Shown: positions 1-13,488 of the stretch, piece by piece
Position numbering within the stretch: position 1 is the stretch's first letter
Layout: every line of letters begins with the position of its first letter
Origin: an uncultured Clostridium sp.
Lineage (GTDB): Bacteria > Bacillota > Clostridia > Lachnospirales > Lachnospiraceae
Length of the DNA: 64,000 bases
Reading direction: 5' to 3'
Assembly: GCA_946553025.1 (NCBI GenBank)
Contig: CAMNRM010000022.1
Location: 2,726 to 66,725, forward strand
Notes under the pieces: model-generated
The model's input: the letters and a program-made list of their open reading frames with translations, nothing else
What the model was told of the DNA's origin: nothing
Database searches by the model: none
Position numbers and translations under genes: made by a program

Positions 1-1
1 G

Positions 2-817
2 TTCTTTAAAGAAATCCTCATTTTTATGCTTTGTGGCAGTTTCATCCATCTCATTTTTCATTTCAAACATTATGGAAATAAATTCTATATCGTCCACAAA
101 ATCTCTGAAAATAAAATCCCCCTTACTTCCAGTTCGTATATCATTGTCCTTTTCAAAATAGGCAGTAGGAAATGCTGCCATTCGCAATGCATTAAACTGA
201 TTTGAACAGTGCTGTTCCAGACTTTCTCCTATCATTTTCGTAGATTGTCGTGCTTTAAAATCTTTGTATTGTGCAATTAATTCATCTTTTGATTTTAATT
301 CATTTTTATATTTCTCTTCCAATGACTTTTCTTTTAGTTTATTCTCATTTTCTTTATTTGATAATTGCTGTGTTAGTATTGTAATTTCATTGTTCTTTTC
401 AAAAATTTCTTGTTGTTTGTCTTGCACTGCTTTTGTAACTGCCAATTCTTTTTTTGTTTCCGCATCTTTGAGTTCACCTTTTAATTTTTCAATTTCTTTA
501 TCTTTTTCATTCGTTATATTACTTATTGCAAGTTTCTTATCATTTTCACTTTCATTAATTTTTGACTCTAACTCTTTAATTCTTGTATCCTTATTTGATA
601 ATTTTAAGTCTTTATCTGAAAGACGTTTATCATAATCTTGCTGTTGCTGTAATTGAATAATTTTCACGTCACTTGCTTTCTTCTCTTCTAATTCAGCTTC
701 CCGGCGTTTAATTTCTTTATCAAACTCTTTATCTCGAATTTGCTGAACAATTTGGGCATAACCTGATTCATCAACTACAAAAACCTCCCCACATTTTGGA
801 CATTTAATCTCCTGCAT
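2..817 (-). CDS. DUF2130-family coiled-coil protein (N-terminal CxxC knuckle), truncated by the window edge
   Basis: Absent from the ORF track because it runs off the edge. Manual translation from ATG 817 gives MQEIKCPKCGEVFVVDESGYAQIVQQIRDK...STKMIGESLEQHC...FEKDND...KGDFIFRD...IMFEMKNE. SD AAGGAG overlaps the stop of the pglX C-terminal ORF. Confidence 0.8.
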   Translation of the reverse strand, partial: MQEIKCPKCGEVFVVDESGYAQIVQQIRDKEFDKEIKRREAELEEKKASDVKIIQLQQQQDYDKRLSDKDLKLSNKDTRIKELESKINESENDKKLAISNITNEKDKEIEKLKGELKDAETKKELAVTKAVQDKQQEIFEKNNEITILTQQLSNKENENKLKEKSLEEKYKNELKSKDELIAQYKDFKARQSTKMIGESLEQHCSNQFNALRMAAFPTAYFEKDNDIRTGSKGDFIFRDFVDDIEFISIMFEMKNEMDETATKHKNEDFFKE

Positions 818-830
818 AATTGTAATCTCC

Positions 831-1772
831 TTATTTTATTTTTGCTAATACATTTTGAAAAATAGCGTAATTATGTTTTACTCCGTCATCTAAATCAATC
901 TTAATCATCTGATCTGCCAGATGATGAATTTTTTCCTCATAGTCATATAATTCTTTTGCCTGGTCTTGTAACTTTTTCAGTTGTTTATTCAGTTTAACAC
1001 GTTCGCTTGTTTTCGCTCCGATAATCTGTTCTTCTATCGCTCCAATAGCAGTACGGTAACGGCTCTGCAATTCATGAACATAATCTGTGCGGATACGGGC
1101 AATAGTATCTGGCTGATAACGATGTATGTAAATCAAACATTTAAAGCCACCATTTTTACCAGAATCAAACAGCCAATAAATGGGACGTTTTTGGTAAGTT
1201 TTACAGTGATTAGTGTAAAACTCATTAAGAAAATAATTTCGTATAACTTCACGGGAATTTCCTTTACCAACAAGCGCATCTGCAATAAATTTCAAGTTCT
1301 CTTCCAGCGTATCTGTTCCATAAACCGTTTCTACCCATTTTATAAATCTACTGGTAATATCATTTTCAAAATAATCATCATCACAGATGGGGAGAATGGC
1401 ATCTGGTTCTGGCTGGAAGGTTATGTACTTAGATGTATCCCATTCACCCCCAGCATAAACTAATCCCTCTACATCAAGAGAATAGCGTCCGAACATACAG
1501 CCTACGGCATAGGAAATTAATGAAACAATTTCATCCCGCATGGTACGAATATAATTACTGCCTTTCATCGATTCTGGAATATCTTCTTTTGTGTCATAAA
1601 TTCTATGGACAGTAACATCCTTGTCGGCAACTTCTGGTGTTAATTCATCTTGTAAACCATAAATATCAATAAAAATTCGGTTTAGTTCTTCCTCGTTGGC
1701 TTTAAGTTGGTCAAAGCGAGCATTACACTCTGCTTTCCATACGGTGTATTTATCAAAAATCAATTGTGACAC
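831..1772 (-). CDS. pglX: BREX-1 methyltransferase PglX, C-terminal part (separately translated)
   Basis: WKAECNARFDQLKANEEELNRIFIDIYGLQDELTPEV, YQKRPIYWLFDSGK and IDLDDGVKHNY are hallmark PglX C-terminal motifs. GTG start with AAAGGAGG 7 nt upstream. Confidence 0.9.
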   Translation of the reverse strand: MSQLIFDKYTVWKAECNARFDQLKANEEELNRIFIDIYGLQDELTPEVADKDVTVHRIYDTKEDIPESMKGSNYIRTMRDEIVSLISYAVGCMFGRYSLDVEGLVYAGGEWDTSKYITFQPEPDAILPICDDDYFENDITSRFIKWVETVYGTDTLEENLKFIADALVGKGNSREVIRNYFLNEFYTNHCKTYQKRPIYWLFDSGKNGGFKCLIYIHRYQPDTIARIRTDYVHELQSRYRTAIGAIEEQIIGAKTSERVKLNKQLKKLQDQAKELYDYEEKIHHLADQMIKIDLDDGVKHNYAIFQNVLAKIK

Positions 1773-2323
1773 AAATTATCCTCCTTTTTCTTTTCAATTA
1801 AATTTTTCCATTTTTTTAAATTTGTTTGATAACAAATAATTCGTGCAGATATATTTCCTGTTGTATTACGGTCTTCAAATAAAATTGAAATATAATTTCC
1901 ACCATGAACAACAAATACTCTACCATGAGCAAGTGCATTTCTTAAATGACGTAATAAACATTCTAAATCAGTTTCCCTATATCCATTTTTAATGCTTCGT
2001 TTACATATAAAACGATTACAACAACTACACAAGTTATTATCATCCAACAAATATTTAAAGTTTAAATACTTATCAATTTTTTTATTTTGTGCAATAAAGG
2101 AATAATTTTCCATGTCCCATGAATCAAGCATTTCTTCGAGTAATTCATTATGTTGTTCCTGTGGTAAATAACTACATATATAAGAAGATATATTAGGTGC
2201 TTCATATTGAAAAAAACCAAATAATTTTCGCAAATTACTTATCTCACATGTAGTTGGATTTATTGCGTTACATGGTGAAATATCAAAATACTTCACAGAT
2301 TTTTTACACGTTTTACATTTCAT
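1760..2323 (-). CDS. Putative HEPN-domain RNase (Rx4H motif)
   Basis: ECLLRHLRNALAHG contains the R-N-x-x-A-H HEPN signature. Own SD (GAGGT) overlaps the pglX-N stop. AT-rich. Confidence 0.6.
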   Translation of the reverse strand: MKCKTCKKSVKYFDISPCNAINPTTCEISNLRKLFGFFQYEAPNISSYICSYLPQEQHNELLEEMLDSWDMENYSFIAQNKKIDKYLNFKYLLDDNNLCSCCNRFICKRSIKNGYRETDLECLLRHLRNALAHGRVFVVHGGNYISILFEDRNTTGNISARIICYQTNLKKWKNLIEKKKEDNLCHN

Positions 2324-2332
2324 AATTTACCT

Positions 2333-4777
2333 CTATACTAAAGAATGATGTTTAAAACCCCAAGAAGTTTCCAAAGAGTCCCAATCCTCTTTTGAATAAT
2401 TAATACATACGCCAACTACTTTTTCAATGTTCATCCAATCTTTACTCACAATTAATGGAAGTTCCATTATATCATGAACTTGAAAATTTAAAGTTGGATT
2501 TTTTATATTTAACAAATACTTTACAATACTACTATTTAAAAAGCCTAATACATACTCACATTTATCTTCAATAAAACCAATTGGTCCAGCATCACCAAAC
2601 AAACTACCTTCAATAACTTCTCTAAAAGCAATTTCACTACTTGTAATTCGCCCCCATGTAATGCCCTTTTTAAAATAATATTTTTTATCACGAAGGCGAT
2701 AATTCTTCACATTTTGTTGGATATGTATTCCATCATGATATAAATCAACTATTTTTTGATTATTTCCATACCATTTTCTATATCCACCACCACTATTTAA
2801 TGGAAACCATTGATAATCACCCATATCACTATAATTTTTACAATTAAACTTAATATTATCAATAATTGGTTCAAACCATAATCGGATATAATCATCACTA
2901 CCTGTCATAATGCCTGATTTACAATTAACATATGTTGAAAAATGTTTGTTGCTATATAAACAAAACGTATTTTCACTCACCCAATACGCCACTGGCGTTC
3001 CAGGGATTTTTGAAAAATTCTCTGAACTTGTTTCATAATAATATCCACAATTATGATTTGAAATCGCTTCTAATGTTTTTTGCCGTTGTACCTCCATTCC
3101 ACCACGAAAATCAGTTAATCGAAAAAAGCATCCTTTTTTATTAATATGACAATTTTTAAATACAAATGTGCATACCGGAACAGTTGCTTCTTCAAAAGCT
3201 GAATATTCAAATTGAATAAGTGTTTCTATCGTTTTTTGGTTGCAAATAATACGCCGTAATTTTTCATAAGACTGAATAAACATCCACACATAAGGAGTGA
3301 AAAATCCAAGGTAGCCTGTTGACTTTGTTATTTGCATACAGCGAACCATAAATACAGAGAAGAAATCAGATTTATAATCGGCAAAATTAGATTTTATAAA
3401 TTCACTAAGTCTACCATTCATATTCCCCGCCCCCATATACGGCGGATTCGTACAAACCACATCATATTTCTGCGCCAGCACCTTCCTAAACTGCCAGCAG
3501 TTCATCTTCTCCTCAAAGTTTTCATCAAATAACGTATACTCTTCCGGCTCTTTTGGCATATCTTCCAACTCATCCACCGTCAGCAATGCCCCAAACTCTT
3601 TCCCTTCCTCATATCCTTTCGGGCTATACACATTCGGCTGTATCCCCCGCTTAAAAAACCGGCTGTCATACTGCCTTCCCTTCATCATCACCGAAAAATA
3701 AGCCAACTGCGCTGCCCTATCATCAATATCCAACCCATAAAGATTATTCTCCACAATACTCCGCACAGCATCCCTCGTCTGTACACCGTGCGCCTCATAT
3801 ATCTGTACCAGCACATCAAACATATAACACAAAATATGCCCGCTTCCCATACAGGGATCGATGCACCGAATATCCTCTGGATTCAGCCCGGCATATTCCT
3901 TACGGATTTCCTCTAACTGCCGCTGCACCTCCGGTTCCTGTTCTGCTTCTTCCAGATAATACTTCCACTGCGCCTTCAGTTCATCATTCGGATGCCCCTC
4001 CACCCACAGCCGCCCCAGAGAATTTTCCACCATATATCTTACAATCCAATCCGGCGTAAATAACTGTGTAGCGGCGGGAATATTTTCTTTCGTTATCTTC
4101 ACATTCTTTTTCAATGCGGCAAATACTTCATCTTTCTTTTCACTGTTATAATACTGATACAGCCACCCGATAATCTGTACCTGGTCTTTCCAGTCCTCTT
4201 CCGGGATAAGGGCAATCATCTGTTCAATCACGCTTCCCTCACGGAGCAGGTTATCAGGAAACAGTAATTCCGTATAGTCTTCAATCCTCTGAAACATCCC
4301 CGGCAAAATACTATTTAATGCATTACACTGGACAATAATCAAATACTTAAACAATTCCTCATCTTGATTCCTATTTTTCAGTTCATAAACCTTTTCCATA
4401 TCCAGCCCGTCAAACTCCATATGGATAGCCTCGGTTAAAATCTGCGGTTTAAATGCATTGCTTTCATCCGTAAATACCCGCACATGGGTAGGCAGATATC
4501 CATTAACTTCCATAAACCGCAGAGCCGAAAAACGATTAAACCAGGTATAGGCAACTTCCTCCATCACTTCCTGATAACCCTTCTGCCTAATCTGCTCAAT
4601 CAATGCCCTCCTCTGCCTTTTTTCCGATACCGTCAAAACCTTGCCGCGCACACTGTCCGCCGCCAAATCTTCAATGCTATTTTCGCCAATATCATAAAAT
4701 GACGCCTTCTGCGAAACACGGGAAATCAATTCTCTTCTTGCCCAGACTGCAAATTTTTTAATCGCGTTTTTATTCAT
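2333..4777 (-). CDS. pglX: BREX-1 adenine methyltransferase PglX, N-terminal/MTase/TRD part
   Basis: MNKNAIKKFAVWARRELI start, ATQLFTPDWIVRYMVENSLGRLW, motif I DPCMGSGH, motif IV NPPY; ends at DWDSLETSWGFKHHSLV. Confidence 0.93.
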   Translation of the reverse strand: MNKNAIKKFAVWARRELISRVSQKASFYDIGENSIEDLAADSVRGKVLTVSEKRQRRALIEQIRQKGYQEVMEEVAYTWFNRFSALRFMEVNGYLPTHVRVFTDESNAFKPQILTEAIHMEFDGLDMEKVYELKNRNQDEELFKYLIIVQCNALNSILPGMFQRIEDYTELLFPDNLLREGSVIEQMIALIPEEDWKDQVQIIGWLYQYYNSEKKDEVFAALKKNVKITKENIPAATQLFTPDWIVRYMVENSLGRLWVEGHPNDELKAQWKYYLEEAEQEPEVQRQLEEIRKEYAGLNPEDIRCIDPCMGSGHILCYMFDVLVQIYEAHGVQTRDAVRSIVENNLYGLDIDDRAAQLAYFSVMMKGRQYDSRFFKRGIQPNVYSPKGYEEGKEFGALLTVDELEDMPKEPEEYTLFDENFEEKMNCWQFRKVLAQKYDVVCTNPPYMGAGNMNGRLSEFIKSNFADYKSDFFSVFMVRCMQITKSTGYLGFFTPYVWMFIQSYEKLRRIICNQKTIETLIQFEYSAFEEATVPVCTFVFKNCHINKKGCFFRLTDFRGGMEVQRQKTLEAISNHNCGYYYETSSENFSKIPGTPVAYWVSENTFCLYSNKHFSTYVNCKSGIMTGSDDYIRLWFEPIIDNIKFNCKNYSDMGDYQWFPLNSGGGYRKWYGNNQKIVDLYHDGIHIQQNVKNYRLRDKKYYFKKGITWGRITSSEIAFREVIEGSLFGDAGPIGFIEDKCEYVLGFLNSSIVKYLLNIKNPTLNFQVHDIMELPLIVSKDWMNIEKVVGVCINYSKEDWDSLETSWGFKHHSLV

Positions 4778-4912
4778 TCGTACACCGCCTTCTCTTACTT
4801 ATCTTCGTTTCACTCATCTTCACTGCAATTATCTTCGTTCCATTTACTTTCGTTTCATACATCTCCATTTTGCACATCTTCGCTGCAATTATCTTCATCC
4901 CATCTATCTCTG

Positions 4913-7900
4913 CTATTTCAACTGAATACCATCACAGTTTTTCAATAACTGCTTTAACTGTTCACGGATTTTCTCCACATATACATCGATATCTTCCTCA
5001 CTCTCCAAACACTTTGCCGGAAAAACAATCTGCCGGTTATACGACTTTATTCTCTTCTTAGAAACTGCCGCTTTCTCTGCCCTATCCGCCTTTTCCGCTT
5101 TCACCGCCATATTTCCCTGCCGCTTTCCCACAGCAGATACGTCGCTTTCAGCTAATCCATCTAATCCAGCCAGTCCGTCTACCCCATCCGATGCCGCAGA
5201 ATCCGCAGAACCCGCCGAACCGCCCGCTCCCATCGAACGCTCCATCCCCGCCGACTTCTTATCTGTCAGCGCTTCTATTTTTTCACATGCTTTATCTTTA
5301 TACTGCAGCATCTGCGGCACAAGACCATCCAGCAAAGCAAGGTTTTTACATTCCCCGATATCCTTCTCTTTCTGCGCATAATAAGTATCTGCCTTATCCA
5401 ATGTCATCTTTACCTCGTGATTCCCGTCCCCCGCCTGAATTATCGCAGCCCTGCACTGAACCAGCACATCCTTAACCTCTTCCCGCTTTTCCACCAGCAA
5501 ACGATTATGCCCTTCATGCACGGTTTTTATCAATTCATTTAATTCCGGAATCCTCCTGTAATTAAATCCTCCCTGCACCTTCGTAATCAGCCGAATCTGG
5601 TTTAAGGCAGCATTTGCCTCCTCTTCATGAGAAATGTAATCCAGTTCATTGCGCAGCTCCTCTTCCAGTTCTGCCGCCTCGTCAAACAACTGCACCTGGC
5701 TGCGGAAGAATCCTTCTACATCCTGCAAATCTTCCTTGCTGTCAAAAAGATGATCTTCCTCCTTCAATACCGCATCAATCAGGGCAATATTATCTTTCTG
5801 CTGGGACAAAATATTCTCCATCAACTGACAGGCATCAGAAACCTTATCCTGGTCTGGATATCTTCTATCCGTGCGATATCTCTCCCCCAACTCTTCATAA
5901 TGCCTTTTCTGCCCGGAAAAATATTCCACAATAAAGGCAACCAGGCCGTCCTCGTCCTCCGGCACATCCATCCGGTCAAAGTATTCCCGAAGCAAATCTT
6001 TTACCTTCTTCATCTTCACCGCCGTAACTACCTGTCGTTTGGAAATGCTGGTTTTTCCAATCTCACTCTTTTTCCGCAGCATATCCGGCAGTTTGGGGTT
6101 ATCCGGCTGAATCGTTGCCCCGCCGTATTTCACTGTAACCTTCTGCTGGACAATCAGCAGCGCGACAACTGCGGCAATATCAATCTCCCGCCATCCATAA
6201 GGAATCGCCTGGTAACGGCTCTGAACATCCGCCATCGACGTGGGCAGGTTCTTTCGCTCCTGAACAATCAAGTACTCCTCCACCTTCGCCGCGGCATCGC
6301 GATTAGGTTCTGTTCCCGGAAGCATCCCTTCATCGCCGGACAAAACGGCAAGGATATCCGCGTCTGTTTCCGCATTTTTCGTTATCAGGTTAAGTTCACT
6401 GTAGACATGGGAAACCAGATATTCCATAGCCTGATCAATCCTGGCCTTAACATCGCCGCTCCTGATTTCCAAATGCTCCCCATCCACGTAATACTCGGCA
6501 TCCTCAATCGCTTTTTTCAAATCATTCATTGCCGACTGCTCATACCGCACCGCCTCTTCCTGCCGGCTGCGGATGATATCCTGCACGGTTTTGGGAAGCT
6601 GTGAAACATTGCGCTGTTTTACGTATTTGCGGATCTTCATAGCGCTTTCCAGGGCTTCATAATAAGGCGCATCCGAAAGAACGACAATCGCCTGCCCTTT
6701 CGATTCCGTCATTAAACGAAGTTCTGCTTTTTCCGCCCCATCAGTAGCCACCGTTAAAAACCGCAGGCGCATTCCCCCGGTAACGGCACCGATCATCACG
6801 CCGTCCACCATCTGATCAAAAGCAAAATCATATTTCCCGTAGCGAAATTTCTTCACCGTATAAATATCCGCAAAAATCATATGCCCGATGTGCTCGACAA
6901 TATTGGCGGTATCCACGGGCGTATTTTTAATTTCCCGCTGAATATCCTGTTCCTCGTCGGTCAGGAAGTTATAGGTATCCCCGGTTCTTCCGATATAGTT
7001 CTGGCTCATCAGCCGCTCAAGGGATTCCTTTACCTTTTCGCGCAGGACAATCTTATCGGAACGAATATCTTCCGCCATCAGAATAACCATATTGTCCACA
7101 TTTGCCGGAATATCATCCACATAGCGGATAAGGTATAAAAGCTTCAGCAGATCAACATCCTGATCCAATATACCCAGACCGCTGTCCGCCGCCTTCTGGC
7201 ATCGGTCAATCACCCGACGGATGGAACTGTCCAGGAAGCTATGTACGGTATCATAAAAGCGGAAAAACGGCACCAGGGCATATTCATCCTTCTCCTGAAT
7301 CTTCTGCACCGCCTCCTGGAAGCCGGACAGCATGGAACGCTCGCCCCCGGACAGATGCTTGCCGGAATTTCCGTGCTTGCGGATTTCGGCAAATACCTTC
7401 TGCATAATGATGAACTGGTAAGGCACAAATGGATAATTTACGGCAAATTCCATCGCGCCTCCATAACCCTTGATATCTAATATCGAATTGGTAAAGCTGA
7501 AAAGATTTCGCAGAACCGAGTCATTTTTCTCATATAAATCTTCAAGTTTTTTGCTTACTTCCGGCTTTTTCTTTAAAATGCGCTTCTGAATCACCTCATC
7601 CACCGAGGACGAGGAAAGGCTGAGTCTTGTCTTAAACCGTGCCTGAATACGGGAAAATTCATCCGCACGAACCTTAATAATCTCGTCAATCGCCTCCTGC
7701 CCCGTACACATCACCCAGACTTTTCCGCCGCACGCGCTGCCGATTTTTTCGGTAAGCGACTGTAGATTTAAAAGCATATCGGTATCCGTGCCGACATACT
7801 GACCCACCTCGTCAATCATAAACAACAAACGAAAGTTTTCCGGCTTTGTATCCACATAAGCCTTAATATCCGAAACCAACTGTGCAATGGAAAATTCCAC

Positions 7901-8599
7901 CGCCGTTTTATCCTGAAACCAGCGCTTTGCATCCTCCTCGCTCATATCCAGAACTTCCGCTAAAGCCGGGATAATAAATTTCCCGTTAAAAGCATATGCC
8001 TTTCGCTGTTCCAGCCATGGCTTGCCTTTTTTCTGTTCAAAACTCCGGCGAAACTCTTCGGTTTTTCCCTGCTGTTCGATATATTGTTCCATCATAGAAA
8101 CCTTTAAATCCTCACCGTAAAACCCAAGATGGTTATAAAACATTTTGGCAAAAACGCGCAGCACCGCCGTTTTATTTTTCTCAATAGGACCTTCAATATC
8201 AATATTAAATAAGATCGTTTCCGTCTGGTTTCGCGTCGATTGATCCACGCTCATAAAGGCAGCCGGATCGTCCTCAAACTTGCGCCGGAACATCTCCACC
8301 ACGGACATCTCTCCGATAGTTCTGTTTTCCAGAAGATAAGACAGCATTTTTAAAAAATGTGATTTACCGCTTCCAAAAAACCCGGAAATCCAGACACCGA
8401 TATCTGCCGTCGGCGTATGAAAGGCTTCGCTGTAATCATCAAAAAAACGGATAAAATGTTTTTTCAGTTCGCGGGTAATCACGTATTCCTGCACTTCCTG
8501 CAAAATCACATCCTCCGCATTCTGATCAACCTTAATTACACCGTTAATCTGCCGGTTAATATTTTCTGCAAACATATCACGAATCATCATCGCGCTCAT
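4913..8599 (-). CDS. brxC: BREX system P-loop ATPase BrxC
   Basis: 1228 aa; GVWISGFFGSGKSHFLK Walker A, DEVGQY Walker B, YPFVPYQF; position between brxB and pglX. Confidence 0.93.
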   Translation of the reverse strand: MSAMMIRDMFAENINRQINGVIKVDQNAEDVILQEVQEYVITRELKKHFIRFFDDYSEAFHTPTADIGVWISGFFGSGKSHFLKMLSYLLENRTIGEMSVVEMFRRKFEDDPAAFMSVDQSTRNQTETILFNIDIEGPIEKNKTAVLRVFAKMFYNHLGFYGEDLKVSMMEQYIEQQGKTEEFRRSFEQKKGKPWLEQRKAYAFNGKFIIPALAEVLDMSEEDAKRWFQDKTAVEFSIAQLVSDIKAYVDTKPENFRLLFMIDEVGQYVGTDTDMLLNLQSLTEKIGSACGGKVWVMCTGQEAIDEIIKVRADEFSRIQARFKTRLSLSSSSVDEVIQKRILKKKPEVSKKLEDLYEKNDSVLRNLFSFTNSILDIKGYGGAMEFAVNYPFVPYQFIIMQKVFAEIRKHGNSGKHLSGGERSMLSGFQEAVQKIQEKDEYALVPFFRFYDTVHSFLDSSIRRVIDRCQKAADSGLGILDQDVDLLKLLYLIRYVDDIPANVDNMVILMAEDIRSDKIVLREKVKESLERLMSQNYIGRTGDTYNFLTDEEQDIQREIKNTPVDTANIVEHIGHMIFADIYTVKKFRYGKYDFAFDQMVDGVMIGAVTGGMRLRFLTVATDGAEKAELRLMTESKGQAIVVLSDAPYYEALESAMKIRKYVKQRNVSQLPKTVQDIIRSRQEEAVRYEQSAMNDLKKAIEDAEYYVDGEHLEIRSGDVKARIDQAMEYLVSHVYSELNLITKNAETDADILAVLSGDEGMLPGTEPNRDAAAKVEEYLIVQERKNLPTSMADVQSRYQAIPYGWREIDIAAVVALLIVQQKVTVKYGGATIQPDNPKLPDMLRKKSEIGKTSISKRQVVTAVKMKKVKDLLREYFDRMDVPEDEDGLVAFIVEYFSGQKRHYEELGERYRTDRRYPDQDKVSDACQLMENILSQQKDNIALIDAVLKEEDHLFDSKEDLQDVEGFFRSQVQLFDEAAELEEELRNELDYISHEEEANAALNQIRLITKVQGGFNYRRIPELNELIKTVHEGHNRLLVEKREEVKDVLVQCRAAIIQAGDGNHEVKMTLDKADTYYAQKEKDIGECKNLALLDGLVPQMLQYKDKACEKIEALTDKKSAGMERSMGAGGSAGSADSAASDGVDGLAGLDGLAESDVSAVGKRQGNMAVKAEKADRAEKAAVSKKRIKSYNRQIVFPAKCLESEEDIDVYVEKIREQLKQLLKNCDGIQLK

Positions 8600-8604
8600 C
8601 CTCC

Positions 8605-9168
8605 TTATAGTACATTAAATGCCCGGTAGTAATCGTTCGGCTGCAGCCGGTCAAATAACTTTAAATGATACCCGTCAAATTCACCAGGGTACATCACTAA
8701 AATCGGTATATCCGAAAAATGCGGCTGCAATGCCTCCAAAAGGGTGTGCACCCGCATAAATGGGAATACATCGCCCACCCCGGTAATCAGTAAGACATCC
8801 CCTGACCGGTGCGGCGCATATTGGATTTTTTTAATGTATTCCTCTTCCCCAACCGCAGAATGAAGCTGTTCCAGCAGAAAAATTCCGCCGTCCTCTTCCT
8901 CCATTTCCGGTATAGCTTCCAGAATATCCAGATCCCTGCAGACATCCAAAAAGATTTTGTAAAGATTACACTCTATCAGATGACAGTTCATCAGCGGATC
9001 GGATATCATCTGTTCAAGAAAATGCTGCACCATCATTTCTTCTTCCGCGTTATAGCAAAAAATACGGATATTTACTTCATTGCTCAATCCCTTACCTTCA
9101 AGAAAATCCTCTTCCTGAATCAACTTCCGCAGATGATCCAAACGCTCTTTCGTATTTCCATTTCCCAT
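8605..9168 (-). CDS. brxB: BREX protein BrxB (DUF1788)
   Basis: FLEGKGLSNEVNIRIFCY, ITGVGDVFPFMRVHTLL, YPGEFDG...DYYRAF; gene order. Confidence 0.9.
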   Translation of the reverse strand: MGNGNTKERLDHLRKLIQEEDFLEGKGLSNEVNIRIFCYNAEEEMMVQHFLEQMISDPLMNCHLIECNLYKIFLDVCRDLDILEAIPEMEEEDGGIFLLEQLHSAVGEEEYIKKIQYAPHRSGDVLLITGVGDVFPFMRVHTLLEALQPHFSDIPILVMYPGEFDGYHLKLFDRLQPNDYYRAFNVL

Positions 9169-9327
9169 CAGCCATTACCTCCTGCCTGTTTCAAAAGGAA
9201 CTTGAAATGCCCGATAAATCCAGGCAGCCCCTCCATTCCTCCACTTTATTCCTTTCCCTATTCAAAGGAAATTCGGAATGCCCGATAAAGCGGGGCAGAC
9301 CCTCCGCTCCGCTACTTCCTTGATAGA

Positions 9328-9999
9328 TTAAATCGATAAAAAACAATTAAACGCAGGCAAAGCTGCATCATCATGATTTTTGCGGATAGCTTCCTCCAGA
9401 ACAGGGTTCAGCCATACAAGATTCAAATGGTCAGCTTTGCCGTTATCCATATATTCATTTTCAACCAGAATTTTCACCATCACCTGTTTTAATTTTGTTA
9501 TGGTCGATTCACTCCATCCGGCAATGGTGTCTTCCTGTTCCTGAAGACGAAGAAAAAAGATATTTACATCCGATTTCCCAAAAGAAAATTCATTAAGCCG
9601 GTATTTCTCTCCAATCTCAGTAACCATAAATTCCCAGATGATGCGGTATTCCTTCATCATGGCATACAGGCAGATCTGCTTTGCATCATAAAAAGGCCGC
9701 TCAGCCAGCGCACACACTAAAGATTCATCCCCCATGGCCCGCAGACGGCGAATACAGGCCCTGGCCATCCTCTGCAAAGACTTTTCCGTCGGATATTGAA
9801 ACAGATTTTCCTCTGCAATATGTTTGATTATCTCTTCATCCGACAGCTTTTCGCCCATCAGCCTGGCGGTAATACGCATTTCATAGAATAAGAATGGTTC
9901 CCTTGTGAACGCAGAAGAATAAGGTTTGAAGTTTTTTACATTTTTTGCAGTCTTATTCACCAGCTTCTTATTCACCATCCTACCCTTTACCTTTCCCAT
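9328..9999 (-). CDS. brxA: BREX protein BrxA (DUF1819); true start possibly 9978
   Basis: YSSAFTREPFLFYE, NLFQYPTEKS, WSESTITKLKQ; gene order. Confidence 0.88.
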   Translation of the reverse strand: MGKVKGRMVNKKLVNKTAKNVKNFKPYSSAFTREPFLFYEMRITARLMGEKLSDEEIIKHIAEENLFQYPTEKSLQRMARACIRRLRAMGDESLVCALAERPFYDAKQICLYAMMKEYRIIWEFMVTEIGEKYRLNEFSFGKSDVNIFFLRLQEQEDTIAGWSESTITKLKQVMVKILVENEYMDNGKADHLNLVWLNPVLEEAIRKNHDDAALPAFNCFLSI

Positions 10000-10216
10000 A
10001 ACAAAAATGTATACTTTTCTGTAATTTAAAATAGTTCAGAAAATTTTGCTTATTTTTGGATATATTTTGATTTTTTTCAGAACACACCGAGCAAATACTT
10101 GATTTTATAGTAGAAATTCCATGATTTTTATGTTATTATTGAATGGATAACGAAAAAGCGTGGAATCACGGAAAAGTATGCTTTCCTGTAATTCCACGCC
10201 TGATATTTTTCCACAC

Positions 10217-10831
10217 TTACATTTTTTGATAAGCCATCTTTTGATAAATCTCCGCCCGATAGCGAAACGTTGAAAGCGGCATCTTACACATCTTTGCCGC
10301 CTCTGTACATGTAATTTGCCCGGATTTCCAAAGCTGATAAGATTGATAAAAGCTATCCGGCAGGGGCATCGGCGGGCGTCCGAAACGGATTCCTTTTGCC
10401 TTTGCCGCAGCAATTCCTTCCGCCTGACGCTGCCGGATTGCTGTCCGTTCATTTTCTGCCACAAAGGATAACACCTGCAAAACGATATCACTTAAGAATG
10501 TTCCCATTAAGTCCTTTCCTCTCCGGGTATCTAAAAGCGGCATATCCAATACCACGATATCAATTCCTTTTTCCTTCGTCAGTATTCTCCACTGTTCCAG
10601 AATTTCCCCGTAATTGCGCCCCAACCGATCGATACTTTTGATGTAAAGCAAATCATCTTTTTTTAAACACCTCACCATTTGCTGATACGACGGACGCTGA
10701 AAGTCCTTTCCTGACTGCTTATCGATAAAAATATTTTTCTCCGGAATAAATAATTCCTGCAAAGAAATTAACTGTCTGCTTTCCTTTTGCTCATAGCTGC
10801 TCACGCGAATATAACCATACTTATTGACCAT
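10217..10831 (-). CDS. Serine recombinase (resolvase/invertase family) with C-terminal HTH
   Basis: YGYIRVSS catalytic Ser motif, SGKDFQRP, SIDRLGRN, ERTAIRQRQAEGIAAAK. Start moved to ATG 10831 (SD GGAAAGGGG). Confidence 0.9.
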   Translation of the reverse strand: MVNKYGYIRVSSYEQKESRQLISLQELFIPEKNIFIDKQSGKDFQRPSYQQMVRCLKKDDLLYIKSIDRLGRNYGEILEQWRILTKEKGIDIVVLDMPLLDTRRGKDLMGTFLSDIVLQVLSFVAENERTAIRQRQAEGIAAAKAKGIRFGRPPMPLPDSFYQSYQLWKSGQITCTEAAKMCKMPLSTFRYRAEIYQKMAYQKM

Positions 10832-11089
10832 AAAAATCCCCTTTCCTGCCCGAAAAGCATCGTATTTTCTGCCATTATACGACATGATTCTACATGACTT
10901 TCCAAACAGAAAACAAGGAGATTTCATCAAATATTTCTTCCATTTTATATAACCGTTTTTTAAATAAGTATGTCATCTTTATCTATCTTTATTTCAGAAT
11001 GCTCCTCAACCTTTAACCAAATTCAACAAAAAGTCCTCCACTTCTAAAAATGATGGGATGAATTGCTAATCCCTTCTCTAACAACAAAA

Positions 11090-11125
11090 ATGACTCCAGC
11101 AAGTTCAATCATCTACTGGAGTCAT
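11090..11125 (-). terminator. Intrinsic terminator downstream of XRE gene
   Basis: ATGACTCCAG...CTGGAGTCAT inverted repeat followed by a T-run on the minus strand. Confidence 0.65.
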
Positions 11126-11134
11126 ACTTCTTTT

Positions 11135-11458
11135 CTACACAACTTCTCTAAGTTCCACATATTCATCCATCAAATCTAATAGCCTATCCAGATTATCAGG
11201 ATTGTTAAACTCTTTCATATACTGCAAATCCGATACTAAATTGTCTGATTCACGATTAATCAATTCACTCTTTGTTGTTTGAAGAAGCCTTGCAATCTTA
11301 TCTAATTCAACTGGAGGAATGATAACTTTTCCTTCGATAACATTCCACACATCTTTAATGGAATATCCCAGATGTCTGGCAAATCTACCAGGACTAATGT
11401 TAGCTTCCAGCATACGCATACAAATATTAATGCCAAGCTTTCTTCCTACATTCGCCAT
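11135..11458 (-). CDS. XRE-family HTH transcriptional regulator
   Basis: ISPGRFARHLGYSIKDVWNVIEGK...LDKIARLLQTT helix-turn-helix pattern; good SD (AAAGGGGG). Confidence 0.7.
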   Translation of the reverse strand: MANVGRKLGINICMRMLEANISPGRFARHLGYSIKDVWNVIEGKVIIPPVELDKIARLLQTTKSELINRESDNLVSDLQYMKEFNNPDNLDRLLDLMDEYVELREVV

Positions 11459-11526
11459 TCTACATCCCCCCTTTATTCAACTCAGCAAACACAAACATCC
11501 CCATATAAAAGCTTCATTCCTGTTTC

Positions 11527-13488
11527 TTAAACCGAATGAAACCTCTCCACCAACACCCCAGATCGGTACGCCTCCAAAAGCTGTTCGAGATCCCCAATCT
11601 TCTCCTTAATATCCTTCCCGATATCGGTATCTCCCACCAGTTTTCTCTGCGAAACCCGCTTGACGACAATGCTTTCGGAATGGATATCGCTCCCTTTTTG
11701 TATCGCCGCCTCCGTGGATTCAAACGGCTCATGCGCCGCTAAAATCAGTCCGTAGGAGTTATAAATCAGCGTATAACCCGCAATCCCGGTTTCCCTCTGG
11801 TAAGCCTTGGAAAAGCCGCCGTCAATAATCAGCACCTTCCCGCCGCACTTGACCGGACTCTCCCCGTTTTTCGTTTTCACCGGCACATGCCCGTTAATAA
11901 TATGGCTCTCCTCTGCCGGAAGCCCGAACTCTTCCAATATCCGATCCGTCACTTCCTCCTTCTCCAATAACCGGTAATACGGATTCTTTCCTTCCTGGTG
12001 CGTTTCCTTATCTGCCAGGAAATATCGCTCAAATGTCGCCATCTTCGCCTTGCCAAACAGCGGTGAGTTTTCATGGAGCCAGATATACCACATCAGGTCT
12101 TTTCCTCGCCGCTTTTCCTCTGCATTGACCGCGACAAAACTCTTTCTTACATAGCTGTCCAGCACCTCGTAAAGTGCCTTCCCCTTATACTTTTTCCCGT
12201 AAATCTCCACCTCTTTCAGCGTTCCGTCGGCATTTAACGGCACACATCCATGATAGAGAAGATTCCCGTTATACACCTTATATAAGCTTCCCTTAGCCAA
12301 TAAAAACTTCATGTGCTGCTGCAGCTTTTCACAGTTTAAAAAGGCCCGTTCCAGGCGGCGGATAATCTCCTCCTCCTGCTCGGTAAACGCATAGGGCGCA
12401 GCCGGATTTACGGTTGGGAAATTCTTATCCAGCAGCTCATATTCCTTCCCGTCCAGCACAATCGTCCCCTTGGCAAAGTCAATGCGGTGCAGAAGATTTC
12501 TCTTTTCCAGCTTAAATTCCGGGTGGCGCATAATCAATTGACCCTCCGCCTTAAACTGGATAATGGAAATCGCCTTGTGCAGCTTAACATTCATCTCCCG
12601 CTCGTCGATACTGCAGTTTCCCCCGCCCTTTAGCTGGAAGCAGGCACAGGGATCATCCCCGTAAACATTCAAGGCAAAAGTAGCCAAAGGCAGCAGATTA
12701 ATCCCATAGCCGTCCTCTAAAATATCCAGGTTTCCGTACCTGGCGCAGATGCGGATAACATTGGCAATACAGCTAATCTGCCCCGCCGCAGCCCCCATCC
12801 AGAGCACGTCATGATTGCCCCACTGGATATCGATAGAGTGGTATTTCATCAGCTTGTCCATAATAATGTGCGGCCCCGGCCCGCGGTCATAGATATCGCC
12901 GACAATGTGCAGATGGTCCACCACCAGACGCTGAATTAACTGGCAGAGCGCCACGATAAACTCCTCCGCCCGCCCCACGCGGATAATGGTTTTAATAATC
13001 GCATTATAGTAGGATTCCTTATCAATTCCTTCCTCTTTTTCAACAATTAACTCCTCAATCACATAGGCAAACTCCGACGGAAGAGCCTTTCTTACCTTGG
13101 AGCGTGTGTACTTGCTGGCTGCACATTTGCAGACCTGAATCAGACGGTAAAGCGTGATTTTATACCAGTCCTCCGGGTCTTTTTTCTCCTTTAATACCTG
13201 GTTCATCTTTTCCTTAGGATAGTAAATTAAGGTCGCCAAAGACTGCTTGTCCTCATTGCTCAGGGTATTGTGAAATACCTCATTTACCTTTCGGCGCACA
13301 GCCCCGGAACCGTTTTTCAAGACATGGGAAAAGGCTTCATATTCCCCGTGAATATCCGTTAAAAAATGCTCCGTCCCCTTGGGCAGATTCAGGATGGCTT
13401 CCAGGTTAATCACCTCCGTGGAGGCAGCGGCGATGGTCGGATAAAGCTCCGACAGACGCTCTAAATAGCGAATCGATAAATCTTTCAT
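11527..13488 (-). CDS. fbp: Fructose-1,6-bisphosphatase class III
   Basis: NLPKGTEHFLTDIHGEYEAF, GDIYDRGPGP, QWGNHD, IDGGFSKAYQ. Start moved to MKDLSIRY (13488). Confidence 0.93.
   Translation of the reverse strand: MKDLSIRYLERLSELYPTIAAASTEVINLEAILNLPKGTEHFLTDIHGEYEAFSHVLKNGSGAVRRKVNEVFHNTLSNEDKQSLATLIYYPKEKMNQVLKEKKDPEDWYKITLYRLIQVCKCAASKYTRSKVRKALPSEFAYVIEELIVEKEEGIDKESYYNAIIKTIIRVGRAEEFIVALCQLIQRLVVDHLHIVGDIYDRGPGPHIIMDKLMKYHSIDIQWGNHDVLWMGAAAGQISCIANVIRICARYGNLDILEDGYGINLLPLATFALNVYGDDPCACFQLKGGGNCSIDEREMNVKLHKAISIIQFKAEGQLIMRHPEFKLEKRNLLHRIDFAKGTIVLDGKEYELLDKNFPTVNPAAPYAFTEQEEEIIRRLERAFLNCEKLQQHMKFLLAKGSLYKVYNGNLLYHGCVPLNADGTLKEVEIYGKKYKGKALYEVLDSYVRKSFVAVNAEEKRRGKDLMWYIWLHENSPLFGKAKMATFERYFLADKETHQEGKNPYYRLLEKEEVTDRILEEFGLPAEESHIINGHVPVKTKNGESPVKCGGKVLIIDGGFSKAYQRETGIAGYTLIYNSYGLILAAHEPFESTEAAIQKGSDIHSESIVVKRVSQRKLVGDTDIGKDIKEKIGDLEQLLEAYRSGVLVERFHSV

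What the first reader, a model, noticed from the sequence alone, without database searches (positions are those of the whole stretch)
1760..2323. HEPN RNase gene embedded within pglX: possible guard/abortive backup of BREX
Seen: a 187-aa ORF with N-terminal CxxC and the HEPN signature RNALAH sits between the two pglX halves. It has its own SD, and its 3' end carries the SD of pglX-C. Known: the HEPN anticodon nuclease PrrC is nested in the EcoprrI type I RM operon and fires when the RM enzyme is inhibited, and the DNA mimic Ocr inhibits BREX through PglX. Inference: a PglX-tethered HEPN toxin that senses anti-BREX proteins. The layout also makes its loss polar on pglX-C.
Basis: partly seen in the sequence, partly recalled or inferred. 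Interest (0 to 1): 0.8.

Follow-up and report, generated by a model that had tools for sequence, protein, structure and literature searches.

The report
HEPN gene inside split BREX methylase
A small, conserved gene for a predicted RNA-cutting (HEPN) protein sits exactly where the BREX phage-defence methyltransferase gene pglX is divided into two working pieces, and other toxin-like genes occupy that same spot in related bacteria, so it is a natural test case for a "backup suicide effector" wired to an immune system.

Summary
ORF 1760-2323 (minus strand, 187 aa) passes Pfam's cut-off for PF18736 (HEPN pEK499_p136). It has an invariant RNALAH (Rx4H) motif and lies between pglX-N (2333-4777) and pglX-C (831-1772) of a type 1 BREX operon. 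It is 9 nt from pglX-N and overlaps pglX-C by 13 nt, and the pglX-C AAGGAGG ribosome-binding site lies inside its 3' end.

pglX is not broken. The division falls in a variable linker of fused PglX. All three genes are under purifying selection (dN/dS 0.10-0.15). Free-standing 313-aa PglX-C proteins are very common in gut bacteria.

The pglX-N | HEPN | pglX-C layout recurs in at least six diverged lineages. HEPN identity tracks the PglX backbone (rho 0.92). In sister loci the same slot holds a HipA-like kinase, a 162-aa membrane protein, RhuM with DUF2971, or a Druantia-like helicase. More distant family members sit between hsdS and hsdR of type I R-M operons, which is the PrrC position.

HEPN genes in Pgl/BREX operons (2013, 2026) and a two-CDS PglX (2023) are already published. 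The recurrent effector slot at the fission point is the new detail. RNase activity, toxicity and a guard trigger are untested, and no solved structure resembles the confident AF2 model.

The parts
1760..2323 (-). 187-aa ORF, pEK499_p136-family HEPN protein (Cys-rich subfamily)
   Evidence: Pfam PF18736, 30.2 bits > GA 26.6. 28 homologues, all PF18736. dN/dS 0.154 against the L001 orthologue. AF2 pLDDT 93.2, pTM 0.90.
1925..1942 (-). Codons for R128-N-A-L-A-H133, the Rx4H HEPN signature
   Evidence: R125, H126, R128, N129, A132 and H133 are invariant in 29 sequences. In the AF2 model the motif lies at the C-terminal end of helix 119-132. That is where HEPN helix-3 carries it according to PMC3710099.
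2306..2317 (-). Codons for the N-terminal C3-x-x-C6. Together with C99-x-x-C102, C107 and C122 this forms a probable Zn-binding Cys cluster.
   Evidence: C99, C102 and C107 are near-invariant and C122 is invariant. The cluster is absent from the Cys-less subfamily in L118 and L054. Zn binding is an inference.
2329..2335 (-). pglX-N stop codon TAG overlapping the SD-like TAGAGGT of the HEPN ORF (9-nt intergenic gap)
   Evidence: Read from the sequence. The spacing is the same in L001 and L109.
1773..1786 (-). AAGGAGG SD plus 7-nt spacer of pglX-C, lying inside the 3' end of the HEPN ORF. The GTG start is at 1772-1770 and the overlap is 13 nt.
   Evidence: The start is supported by the conserved PglX-C N-termini MxxLI(S/A)DKYxxW in other split loci.
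2333..4777 (-). pglX-N: N-terminal domain, N6-adenine methyltransferase domain (NPPY) and target-recognition domain of PglX, 814 aa
   Evidence: PADLOC PglX E 1.5e-296. Pfam Eco57I, N6_Mtase and MmeI_Mtase. NCBIfam BREX_1_MTaseX. dN/dS 0.095. It ends ...SWGFKHHSLV*, at the same point as every other split PglX-N.
831..1772 (-). pglX-C: C-terminal domain of PglX as a separate 313-aa protein
   Evidence: PADLOC PglX profile 878-1170/1174, E 1.5e-126. NCBIfam 906-1209/1210. dN/dS 0.117. Nearly all of the best 120 database hits are free-standing 313-aa proteins.
1650..3432 (.). Low-GC (0.25-0.31) variable cassette covering the TRD part of pglX-N plus the HEPN ORF
   Evidence: Composition profile. 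Against L109 the backbone is 97.5% identical down to window 3433, there is no nucleotide match across 2372-3432, and the HEPN is only 61% identical at the protein level with dS 0.80.
4913..8599 (-). brxC
   Evidence: PADLOC BrxC E 0; Pfam BrxC domains.
8605..9168 (-). brxB
   Evidence: Pfam BrxB E 1e-36.
9328..9999 (-). brxA
   Evidence: Pfam BrxA E 4e-60.
2..817 (-). DUF2130 gene (5' 272 codons, cut by the window start), directly downstream of pglX-C. In the orthologous locus L001 it is followed by a 90-aa ORF, an RCC1-repeat protein, pglZ and brxL.
   Evidence: Pfam DUF2130 E 4e-34; L001 gene map.

Best explanation
ORF187 is a resident accessory gene of a type 1 BREX operon in which PglX is made as two polypeptides. 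PglX-N carries the N-terminal domain, the methyltransferase domain and the TRD. PglX-C carries the C-terminal domain. The ORF encodes a small stand-alone HEPN protein of the pEK499_p136 family and sits exactly in the fission slot, translationally packed between the two halves.

The most likely function is a latent RNase that serves as a second-line, growth-arresting (abortive) effector coupled to the specificity and methylase module. This would work like PrrC in the EcoprrI type I R-M locus: silent while the modification complex is intact, and released when a phage interferes with that complex.

Shown here: family membership; an invariant catalytic-type motif; purifying selection on all three genes; a recurrent and co-diverging position in or next to pglX; the analogous position of family members in type I R-M operons.

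Inferred: RNase activity, latency, physical contact with PglX, and the trigger.
For: - Family and motif: Pfam PF18736 is above its gathering score. R125, H126, R128, N129, A132, H133 and E117 are invariant across 29 sequences. The confident AF2 model places Rx4H at the C-terminal end of a long helix, followed by a beta insert and a final helix. This fits the HEPN helix-3/helix-4 description in PMC3710099.
- Functional genes: against the L001 orthologous locus, dN/dS is 0.154 for the HEPN, 0.095 for pglX-N and 0.117 for pglX-C.
- Operon packing: gaps of 9 nt and -13 nt, with the pglX-C SD inside the ORF and no terminator-like site between the genes.
- Clean fission: it falls in a variable 5-25-aa linker of fused PglX and no segment is lost.
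- Recurrence: the layout pglX-N | HEPN | pglX-C is seen in the window and L001, and in L109, L015, L022, L054, L047, L021 and L118, with HEPN identity as low as 27-29%. The HEPN is adjacent to pglX in L016-18, L019-20 and L048.
- Co-divergence: HEPN identity tracks the PglX methylase core (Spearman 0.92) and PglX-C (0.82), but not the TRD (-0.05).
- Census: of 34 genome loci (L021-L054), 7 are in BREX next to or inside pglX and 10 lie between hsdS and hsdR of type I R-M.
- Other slot occupants are toxin or defence candidates: a HipA-like kinase (PADLOC PDC-M03A), RhuM (PDC-S05), DUF2971 (PDC-S31) and DruE.
- Ocr contacts the PglX TRD and CTD, the two pieces that flank this gene.
Against: - No experiment exists for any member of this family.
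- Foldseek finds no solved or viral structure with E <= 0.001, despite pLDDT 93. A profile search of PDB sequences finds nothing. The HEPN fold therefore rests on Pfam's assignment, the motif and the predicted topology.
- The family also occurs with no BREX or R-M nearby, next to TIR-TPR, RCC1-repeat, LRR_5 or AAA_21 proteins.
- Slot cargo is heterogeneous and is exchanged between near-identical backbones (window against L109, L001 against L118). This fits a permissive hotspot as well as a dedicated partnership.
- No antitoxin-like partner is visible and PADLOC has no model for the protein.
- RNA evidence for co-transcription is only a few low-depth contigs from runs labelled 'RNA?'.
Confidence: 0.5

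Rival explanations
1. Autonomous cargo. The HEPN gene is a self-contained single-gene defence or abortive-infection module, or a selfish addiction gene. It merely lodges in a permissive, co-transcribed slot of the BREX operon and acts independently of PglX and BREX.
For: The same slot carries unrelated cargo in sister loci: a HipA-like gene, a 162-aa membrane protein, RhuM with DUF2971, a Druantia-like DruE system, and a sigma/RpoA-CTD protein. Near-identical backbones carry different HEPN alleles or subfamilies. Family members occur outside methylation systems. In L016 a decayed HEPN copy sits in the slot while an intact copy lies after pglX-C.
Against: HEPN identity co-diverges with the PglX backbone over deep divergence, rho 0.92. 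Its position is always immediately next to the specificity-bearing component, the PglX TRD end or HsdS. Coupling signals are tight. A constitutively active stand-alone RNase with no antitoxin would need some other silencing mechanism.
Confidence: 0.3
2. Non-toxic partner. The protein is a catalytically irrelevant RNA- or DNA-binding or assembly factor that helps the two PglX pieces re-associate or regulates their expression. The Rx4H motif would then serve binding rather than cleavage.
For: Some HEPN domains are non-catalytic binders (PMC3710099 abstract). The gene lies exactly between two polypeptides that must assemble. The Cys cluster suggests a Zn-ribbon-like interaction module.
Against: Split PglX works with entirely different slot genes, so no specific adaptor is needed. 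Strict invariance of R, N and H in the motif is typical of active HEPN nucleases.
Confidence: 0.12
3. Insertional inactivation. A mobile HEPN gene disrupted pglX and the BREX system here is dead or decaying.
For: pglX is in two ORFs. The TRD and HEPN stretch has foreign-looking low GC.
Against: Both halves have dN/dS of about 0.1. The break is at a natural linker and loses nothing. Free-standing PglX-C proteins are abundant and conserved across genera. pglX-C has a perfect SD and a conserved start. A two-CDS PglX has been described as a working design (PMC9881135).
Confidence: 0.03

Closest known systems
pEK499_p136-like HEPN family (Pfam PF18736; Anantharaman et al. 2013, PMC3710099)
   Same: The ORF matches the family model above the gathering score and has the Rx4H motif. 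The paper already notes members 'in operon with R-M genes ... and with the Pgl components' and proposes suicide or burst-limiting roles.
   Different: The paper reports 'a few instances' in Pgl operons. It does not describe the gene lying at a pglX fission point, its co-divergence with PglX, or alternative cargo in the same slot. The family has no experimental characterisation in the literature searched.
PrrC anticodon nuclease in the EcoprrI (prr) type I R-M locus, and RloC
   Same: It is a HEPN-type nuclease gene nested inside a methylation-based defence operon, next to the specificity component. More distant relatives of ORF187 occupy the hsdS-hsdR position, which is where prrC sits (established knowledge). 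The idea is a latent suicide RNase unleashed when the R-M enzyme is attacked.
   Different: ORF187 is 187 aa with no N-terminal ABC/NTPase domain. It belongs to a different HEPN family. Its host is BREX, not type I R-M. Masking by the host enzyme and activation by a phage factor are not shown.
HEPN 'backup suicidal effectors' catalogued in BREX and BREX-related loci (NAR 2026, PMC12839542)
   Same: Stand-alone HEPN genes inside BREX core loci, interpreted as a second-line abortive layer.
   Different: The main text of that survey contains none of the terms split, truncated, fragmented, fission, HipA, RhuM or DUF2130. The fission-slot architecture is therefore not described in its main text.
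Two-CDS PglX of Brevibacterium casei (Milman et al. 2023, PMC9881135)
   Same: One CDS holds the N-terminal and middle (variable) parts of PglX and a downstream CDS holds the constant C-terminus. The break coincides with the end of the variable region.
   Different: There the split is linked to programmed inversions that swap the TRD. Here no inverted repeats or silent TRD cassettes exist. Here a HEPN gene occupies the gap, and TRD/HEPN variation is seen between strains rather than within one locus.
Genes embedded in BREX (e.g. BrxU/GmrSD, BrxR) and PADLOC 'PDC' defence candidates
   Same: Extra defence genes are carried inside a BREX operon. Slot occupants in sister loci hit PDC-M03A, PDC-S05, PDC-S31 and DruE.
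   Different: ORF187 itself has no PADLOC or NCBIfam model. It lies inside the pglX coding unit rather than between complete genes.

Membership tests
Pfam PF18736 HEPN pEK499_p136 | Whole-protein score at or above the curated gathering score (26.6 bits) | tested here: met
   30.2 bits, E 4.3e-7, protein residues 89-183 on profile positions 49-148 of 152. All 28 homologues are pre-annotated PF18736.
HEPN superfamily | Conserved Rx4-6H motif with a polar residue after R | tested here: met
   R128-N-A-L-A-H133. R, N and H are invariant in 29 sequences.
HEPN superfamily | Motif located at the C-terminal end of helix-3, followed by helix-4 | tested here: met
   In the AF2 model (pLDDT 93) helix 119-132 ends at the motif. 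A three-strand beta insert (136-165) and helix 166-185 follow. The criterion is taken from PMC3710099. This is a prediction only.
HEPN superfamily | Four-helix up-down bundle resembling solved HEPN structures | tested here: inconclusive
   Foldseek against PDB gives a best E of 0.15 and no HEPN hit. BFVD gives a best E of 0.08. An HMM search of PDB sequences gives 0 hits at E <= 10. Large inserts (a Cys cluster between H2 and H3, a beta meander after H3) may hide the core.
HEPN superfamily | Metal-independent endoribonuclease activity | not testable with these tools
   Needs biochemistry.
PrrC/RloC anticodon nucleases | N-terminal ABC-type NTPase (P-loop) regulatory domain fused to the HEPN domain | tested here: not met
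   The protein is 187 aa with no NTPase family in Pfam at E <= 0.1. It is not a member of this family; the likeness is in gene position and proposed logic only.
PrrC/RloC anticodon nucleases | Gene nested in a methylation-based restriction operon next to the specificity gene | tested here: met
   Here it lies directly after the TRD-encoding end of pglX-N. Relatives lie between hsdS and hsdR in 10 genome loci.
PrrC/RloC anticodon nucleases | Kept latent by the R-M enzyme and activated by a phage anti-restriction factor | not testable with these tools
   Needs genetics and biochemistry.
HEPN-MNT type II/VII toxin-antitoxin | Adjacent minimal nucleotidyltransferase (MNT) partner gene | tested here: not met
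   The neighbours are the two pglX halves. No MNT was found in the Pfam scans of the locus.
Type 1 BREX | brxA, brxB, brxC, pglX, pglZ and brxL in one locus | tested here: met
   brxA, brxB, brxC and pglX (in two pieces) are in the window. pglZ and brxL lie beyond window position 1 but are present in the orthologous loci L001 and L109, which are 91-97% identical at the nucleotide level.
Two-CDS (split) PglX as in Brevibacterium casei (PMC9881135) | One CDS for the N-terminal and variable parts and a separate CDS for the constant C-terminus | tested here: met
Two-CDS (split) PglX as in Brevibacterium casei (PMC9881135) | Programmed inversions with silent TRD cassettes and inverted repeats | tested here: not met
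   No significant inverted repeats in 1-12000. No second pglX-like sequence anywhere in the 64-kb window. A serine recombinase gene is present upstream of brxA, but no target for it was found.

The most novel reading that the evidence does not exclude
The TRD-CTD linker of PglX has evolved into a dedicated effector dock. The two PglX polypeptides would assemble around, and silence, an interchangeable toxin encoded between them. That toxin is a HEPN RNase here, and a HipA-like kinase, RhuM or a small membrane protein elsewhere. DNA mimics or other anti-BREX proteins that engage the TRD/CTD 'jaw' would release the toxin. This would be a modular guard architecture built into a methyltransferase. 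The ancestral HEPN insertion may itself have created the gene fission.
Probability: 0.15. Interest if true: 0.85.

Novelty: new variant of a known kind. Interest (0 to 1): 0.55.

Why it matters
How BREX stops phages, and what happens when phages inhibit it (Ocr and similar proteins), is still unclear. A conserved, co-diverging toxin-type gene lies exactly between the two PglX pieces that together form the DNA- and Ocr-binding jaw. This gives a concrete, genetically tractable model for a 'guard' layer in BREX.

It also shows that two-piece PglX is common in gut bacteria, and that its junction is a recurrent slot for defence or toxin cargo. That matters for annotation, because such loci are easily called 'disrupted pglX'. 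It also matters for discovering new effectors by position. If the HEPN turns out to be only hitch-hiking cargo, the result is still a useful map of a defence-gene hotspot inside a gene.

Tried and rejected
- Pseudogene or insertional knock-out of pglX: rejected by dN/dS, the linker-precise break and the abundance of free-standing PglX-C.
- Assembly artefact: rejected by identical contigs in independent runs.
- Shufflon or inversion-driven TRD switching in this locus: no inverted repeats and no silent cassettes.
- HEPN co-varies with the TRD, implying specific TRD contact: not supported, Spearman -0.05. TRDs are saturated at about 30-40% identity except in the closest pair.
- Structural confirmation of the HEPN fold: Foldseek against PDB and BFVD, and an HMM search of PDB sequences, gave nothing significant.
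- Read-through fusion of pglX-N and the HEPN: the ORFs are in the same frame, but two in-frame stops (TAG, TAA) separate them.
- Internal promoter or terminator signals: counts do not differ from shuffled sequence.
- PADLOC and NCBIfam naming of ORF187: no hit.
- RNA evidence for co-transcription: only sparse low-depth contigs from runs of uncertain type. One contig (2205-2407) spans the pglX-N/HEPN junction. This is suggestive, not proof.
- A first attempt at the pairwise identity matrix timed out and was redone.
Full report
**1. What is in the window**

On the minus strand the first 11 kb hold, in order:
- a serine recombinase (10217-10930)
- brxA (9328-9999)
- brxB (8605-9168)
- brxC (4913-8599)
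- an 814-aa ORF (2333-4777)
- the 187-aa ORF of the finding (1760-2323)
- a 313-aa ORF (831-1772)
- a DUF2130 gene cut by the window start (2-817)

The 814-aa protein carries the Eco57I, N6_Mtase and MmeI_Mtase domains. It matches PADLOC and NCBIfam PglX models from position 1. The 313-aa protein matches the same models at 878-1170 of 1174, and at 906-1209 of 1210. The two ORFs are therefore the N- and C-parts of one type 1 BREX PglX.

The orthologous metagenomic locus L001 is 91-93% identical at the nucleotide level. It shows what lies beyond the window edge: full DUF2130, a 90-aa ORF, an RCC1-repeat protein, pglZ and brxL.

**2. The ORF itself**

The ORF starts MKCKTCKK and carries RNALAH at residues 128-133. 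At its own 26%-GC composition, 187 stop-free codons have a chance of about 6e-9. It passes Pfam's gathering score for PF18736, 'HEPN pEK499_p136' (30.2 against 26.6 bits).

A database search found 28 homologues of 37-88% identity, all pre-annotated PF18736. In their alignment E117, C122, R125, H126, R128, N129, A132 and H133 are invariant. A C99-x2-C102...C107 cluster is nearly invariant.

An exhaustive profile search of 1.84 billion representatives found only 462 clusters with E <= 0.001. Nearly all are free-standing proteins of 160-220 aa.

AlphaFold2 gives a confident model (pLDDT 93.2, pTM 0.90). The Rx4H motif ends helix 119-132. A three-stranded beta insert and a long C-terminal helix follow. 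This agrees with the published rule that the motif sits at the end of HEPN helix-3.

No solved or viral structure resembles the model, however. The best Foldseek E-values are 0.15 and 0.08, and an HMM search of PDB sequences returned no hits. The HEPN assignment therefore rests on the family model, the motif and the predicted topology. It does not rest on a fold match.

**3. Is pglX broken?**

It is not.
- In fused PglX proteins the junction reads ...SWDFxxHPL(I/V)-[5-25 variable residues]-xAYxxW....
- Every split locus ends PglX-N at ...SWDFK.HPL(V/I/L)* and starts PglX-C at MxxLI(S/A)DKYxxW. The break is in a variable linker and nothing is missing.
- Against L001, dN/dS is 0.095 for pglX-N, 0.154 for the HEPN and 0.117 for pglX-C. 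These values are in the range of brxA, brxB and brxC.
- The three ORFs are packed with a 9-nt gap (TAG-AGGTAAATT-ATG) and a 13-nt overlap. The pglX-C GTG is served by AAGGAGG, which lies inside the HEPN ORF. No terminator-like site lies between them.
- Searching with PglX-C returned thousands of hits. Nearly all of the best 120 are free-standing 313-aa proteins (76-97% identity). Source names include Hungatella, [Eubacterium] siraeum and Phocaeicola.
- Contigs from independent rodent-gut runs reproduce the arrangement exactly.
- A two-CDS PglX has been described once before, in Brevibacterium casei. There it was interpreted as a way of varying the recognition region while keeping the termini constant (PMC9881135).

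**4. How general is the HEPN-in-pglX layout?**

The order pglX-N | HEPN | pglX-C is found in:
- the window, L001-6 and L109-112
- L015, where a Druantia-like DruE helicase and a 914-aa gene follow the HEPN before pglX-C
- L022 (Candidatus Fimisoma avicola)
- L054 and L118, which carry a Cys-less subfamily
- L047 (Enterorhabdus)
- L021 (Gastranaerophilales)

HEPN identity in these loci goes as low as 27-29%.

In L016-18 the intact HEPN lies just after pglX-C, and a decayed copy remains in the slot. In L019, L020 and L048 it lies between brxC and pglX; that pglX is shown to be fused (1145 aa) in L019, while the L020 and L048 contigs end within pglX-N.

Over the 36 pairs formed by nine split loci, HEPN identity correlates with the PglX methylase core (Spearman 0.92) and with PglX-C (0.82). 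It does not correlate with the TRD (-0.05). The pairs are not independent. The HEPN has therefore travelled with this PglX lineage for a long time.

Cassettes are also exchanged. The window and L109 share a 97-100% identical backbone. Their TRDs are 29% identical and their HEPN alleles 61% identical (dS 0.80). L118 shares the downstream genes of L001 (DUF2130, the 90-aa ORF, RCC1 and pglZ, all 100% identical), with brxC 89% and PglX-C 92% identical to the window's, but carries a 27%-identical HEPN. The low-GC stretch 1650-3300 matches this variable block.

**5. The slot holds other things too**

In the abundant E. siraeum-type loci the gene between pglX-N and pglX-C is a 378-aa protein. It has a HipA-type catalytic loop (FNTDRHYGNFGF), a sub-threshold Pfam HipA_C hit and a PADLOC PDC-M03A hit.

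Other occupants are:
- a 162-aa protein with an N-terminal hydrophobic helix, in Hungatella-type loci
- DUF2971 (PDC-S31) and RhuM (PDC-S05), in L021
- a 1128-aa protein with RpoA-CTD and sigma region 4 domains, in L047

The fission point is therefore a recurrent slot for toxin or defence-candidate cargo. The HEPN family is its most phylogenetically widespread occupant in my sample.

**6. The family outside BREX**

The 34 better-matching genome loci (L021-L054) divide as follows:
- 7 are in BREX
- 10 have the HEPN between hsdS and hsdR of a type I R-M operon
- 7 have it next to LRR_5, TIR-TPR or RCC1-repeat proteins
- the rest are unclear

The hsdS-hsdR position is where prrC lies in the EcoprrI locus (established knowledge). 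In both BREX and type I R-M contexts the gene usually follows the specificity-bearing component.

**7. Mechanism**

The best-supported reading (about 0.5) is a latent HEPN RNase that works as a second-line, growth-arresting effector coupled to the PglX module, in the manner of PrrC.
- Shown: family, motif, selection, packing, recurrent position, and the analogous position in type I R-M.
- Inferred: nuclease activity, silencing by PglX, and release when a phage factor attacks PglX.

The published PglX/BrxX-Ocr structures show Ocr contacting the TRD and CTD. Those are the two parts encoded on either side of this gene, which makes the guard idea concrete but does not prove it.

The main rival (about 0.3) is autonomous cargo in a permissive hotspot. 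It is supported by the heterogeneity and exchange of slot contents and by family members outside methylation systems. Minor rivals are a non-catalytic assembly or binding factor (about 0.12) and insertional inactivation (about 0.03).

**8. What is known and what is new**

Anantharaman et al. 2013 named this family. They noted members in R-M operons and, 'in a few instances', in Pgl operons, and they proposed suicide or burst-limiting roles. A 2026 survey lists stand-alone HEPN genes in BREX loci as backup suicidal effectors. Its main text contains none of the terms I searched for a split PglX. Milman et al. 2023 described one two-CDS PglX.

Three things appear not to be described in the literature I could search:
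- the HEPN gene sits precisely at the PglX fission point in many diverged lineages and co-diverges with PglX
- the same point is a slot for alternative toxin-like genes
- two-piece PglX is very common in gut bacteria

I rate this a new variant of a known kind, of moderate interest (0.55). Its mechanistic inference is reasonable, partly pre-empted by the literature, and untested.

Noticed in passing
window 4786-4921 (brxC-pglX-N intergenic region, minus-strand operon): There is an imperfect 15-nt tandem array (TRF: period 15, 5.7 copies, 66% matches). It fills a 135-nt spacer upstream of pglX-N. About 90 nt of it (window 4821-4911) are absent from the orthologous locus L001, where the spacer is 48 nt. 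L109 has a 135-nt spacer. This may be a variable-number repeat or a regulatory element.
   Followed up: partly
window 10217-10930 (minus strand): A serine recombinase (Pfam Resolvase) lies just upstream of brxA and is conserved at 95% in L001. No inverted repeats or silent pglX cassettes were found that it could act on, so its role (invertase, mobile-element remnant) is open.
   Followed up: partly
window 2-817 (minus strand); L001 11504-12814: A DUF2130 gene with an N-terminal zinc-ribbon and a long coiled coil follows pglX-C directly. It recurs in several split-PglX BREX loci (L016, L022, L109, L113). It is a second recurrent BREX accessory gene of unknown role.
   Followed up: partly
L001 12867-14981; L011 3-1976 and 3577-5418; L031 6930-13085: RCC1-repeat, TPR and TIR proteins recur next to this HEPN family. 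One lies inside the BREX locus of the window's orthologue (609 aa, between DUF2130 and pglZ). Others flank HEPN homologues where no BREX is present. In L109 an LRR_5/choline-binding protein takes the RCC1 protein's place.
   Followed up: partly
L021 6552-16015 (Candidatus Gastranaerophilales MAG): The locus holds two pglX-N paralogues, near-identical over the first ~150 aa (82% over residues 151-200) and then 26-66% identical. It also holds a TRD-only ORF, the HEPN, DUF2971, RhuM and a single pglX-C, all on one strand. It looks like two specificity 'heads' sharing one C-terminal piece.
   Followed up: partly
L016 5861-6337: A decayed HEPN remnant with no ORF occupies the pglX-N/pglX-C gap. It is about 70% identical at the nucleotide level to the 5' and 3' parts of the window ORF. 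An intact HEPN copy lies after pglX-C (7240-7797).
   Followed up: partly
L015 2896-10309: A 914-aa protein and a 1558-aa DruE-type helicase (PADLOC DruE, E 8e-184) lie between the HEPN and pglX-C. This looks like a Druantia-like module nested inside a split pglX.
   Followed up: partly
L007 6412-10567: This is a degraded pglX-like gene. A 147-aa fragment and a 631-aa fragment are present, the latter ending at the usual ...SWDFKKHPLV* point. No pglX-C is present. Small ORFs and a 204-aa ORF come before the HEPN. It appears to be a decaying version of the same arrangement.
   Followed up: no
protein P0165: A 5752-aa protein has 32 separate stretches that match profile positions 139-175 of the HEPN family alignment (the beta-meander region). 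This is probably a repeat protein with a chance or distant likeness.
   Followed up: no
window 9190-9317 (brxA-brxB intergenic region): Two 57-nt direct repeats, 77% identical and 71 nt apart, each contain a small GC-rich hairpin-like core.
   Followed up: no
run X9, contig 24, laid on window 1473-1520 and 3432-3483: A second BREX locus in the same sample shares short conserved anchors in pglX-C and the methylase domain. It has 1336 nt between them instead of 1911. The difference of 575 nt is about the length of the HEPN gene, which would fit a related allele without it.
   Followed up: no
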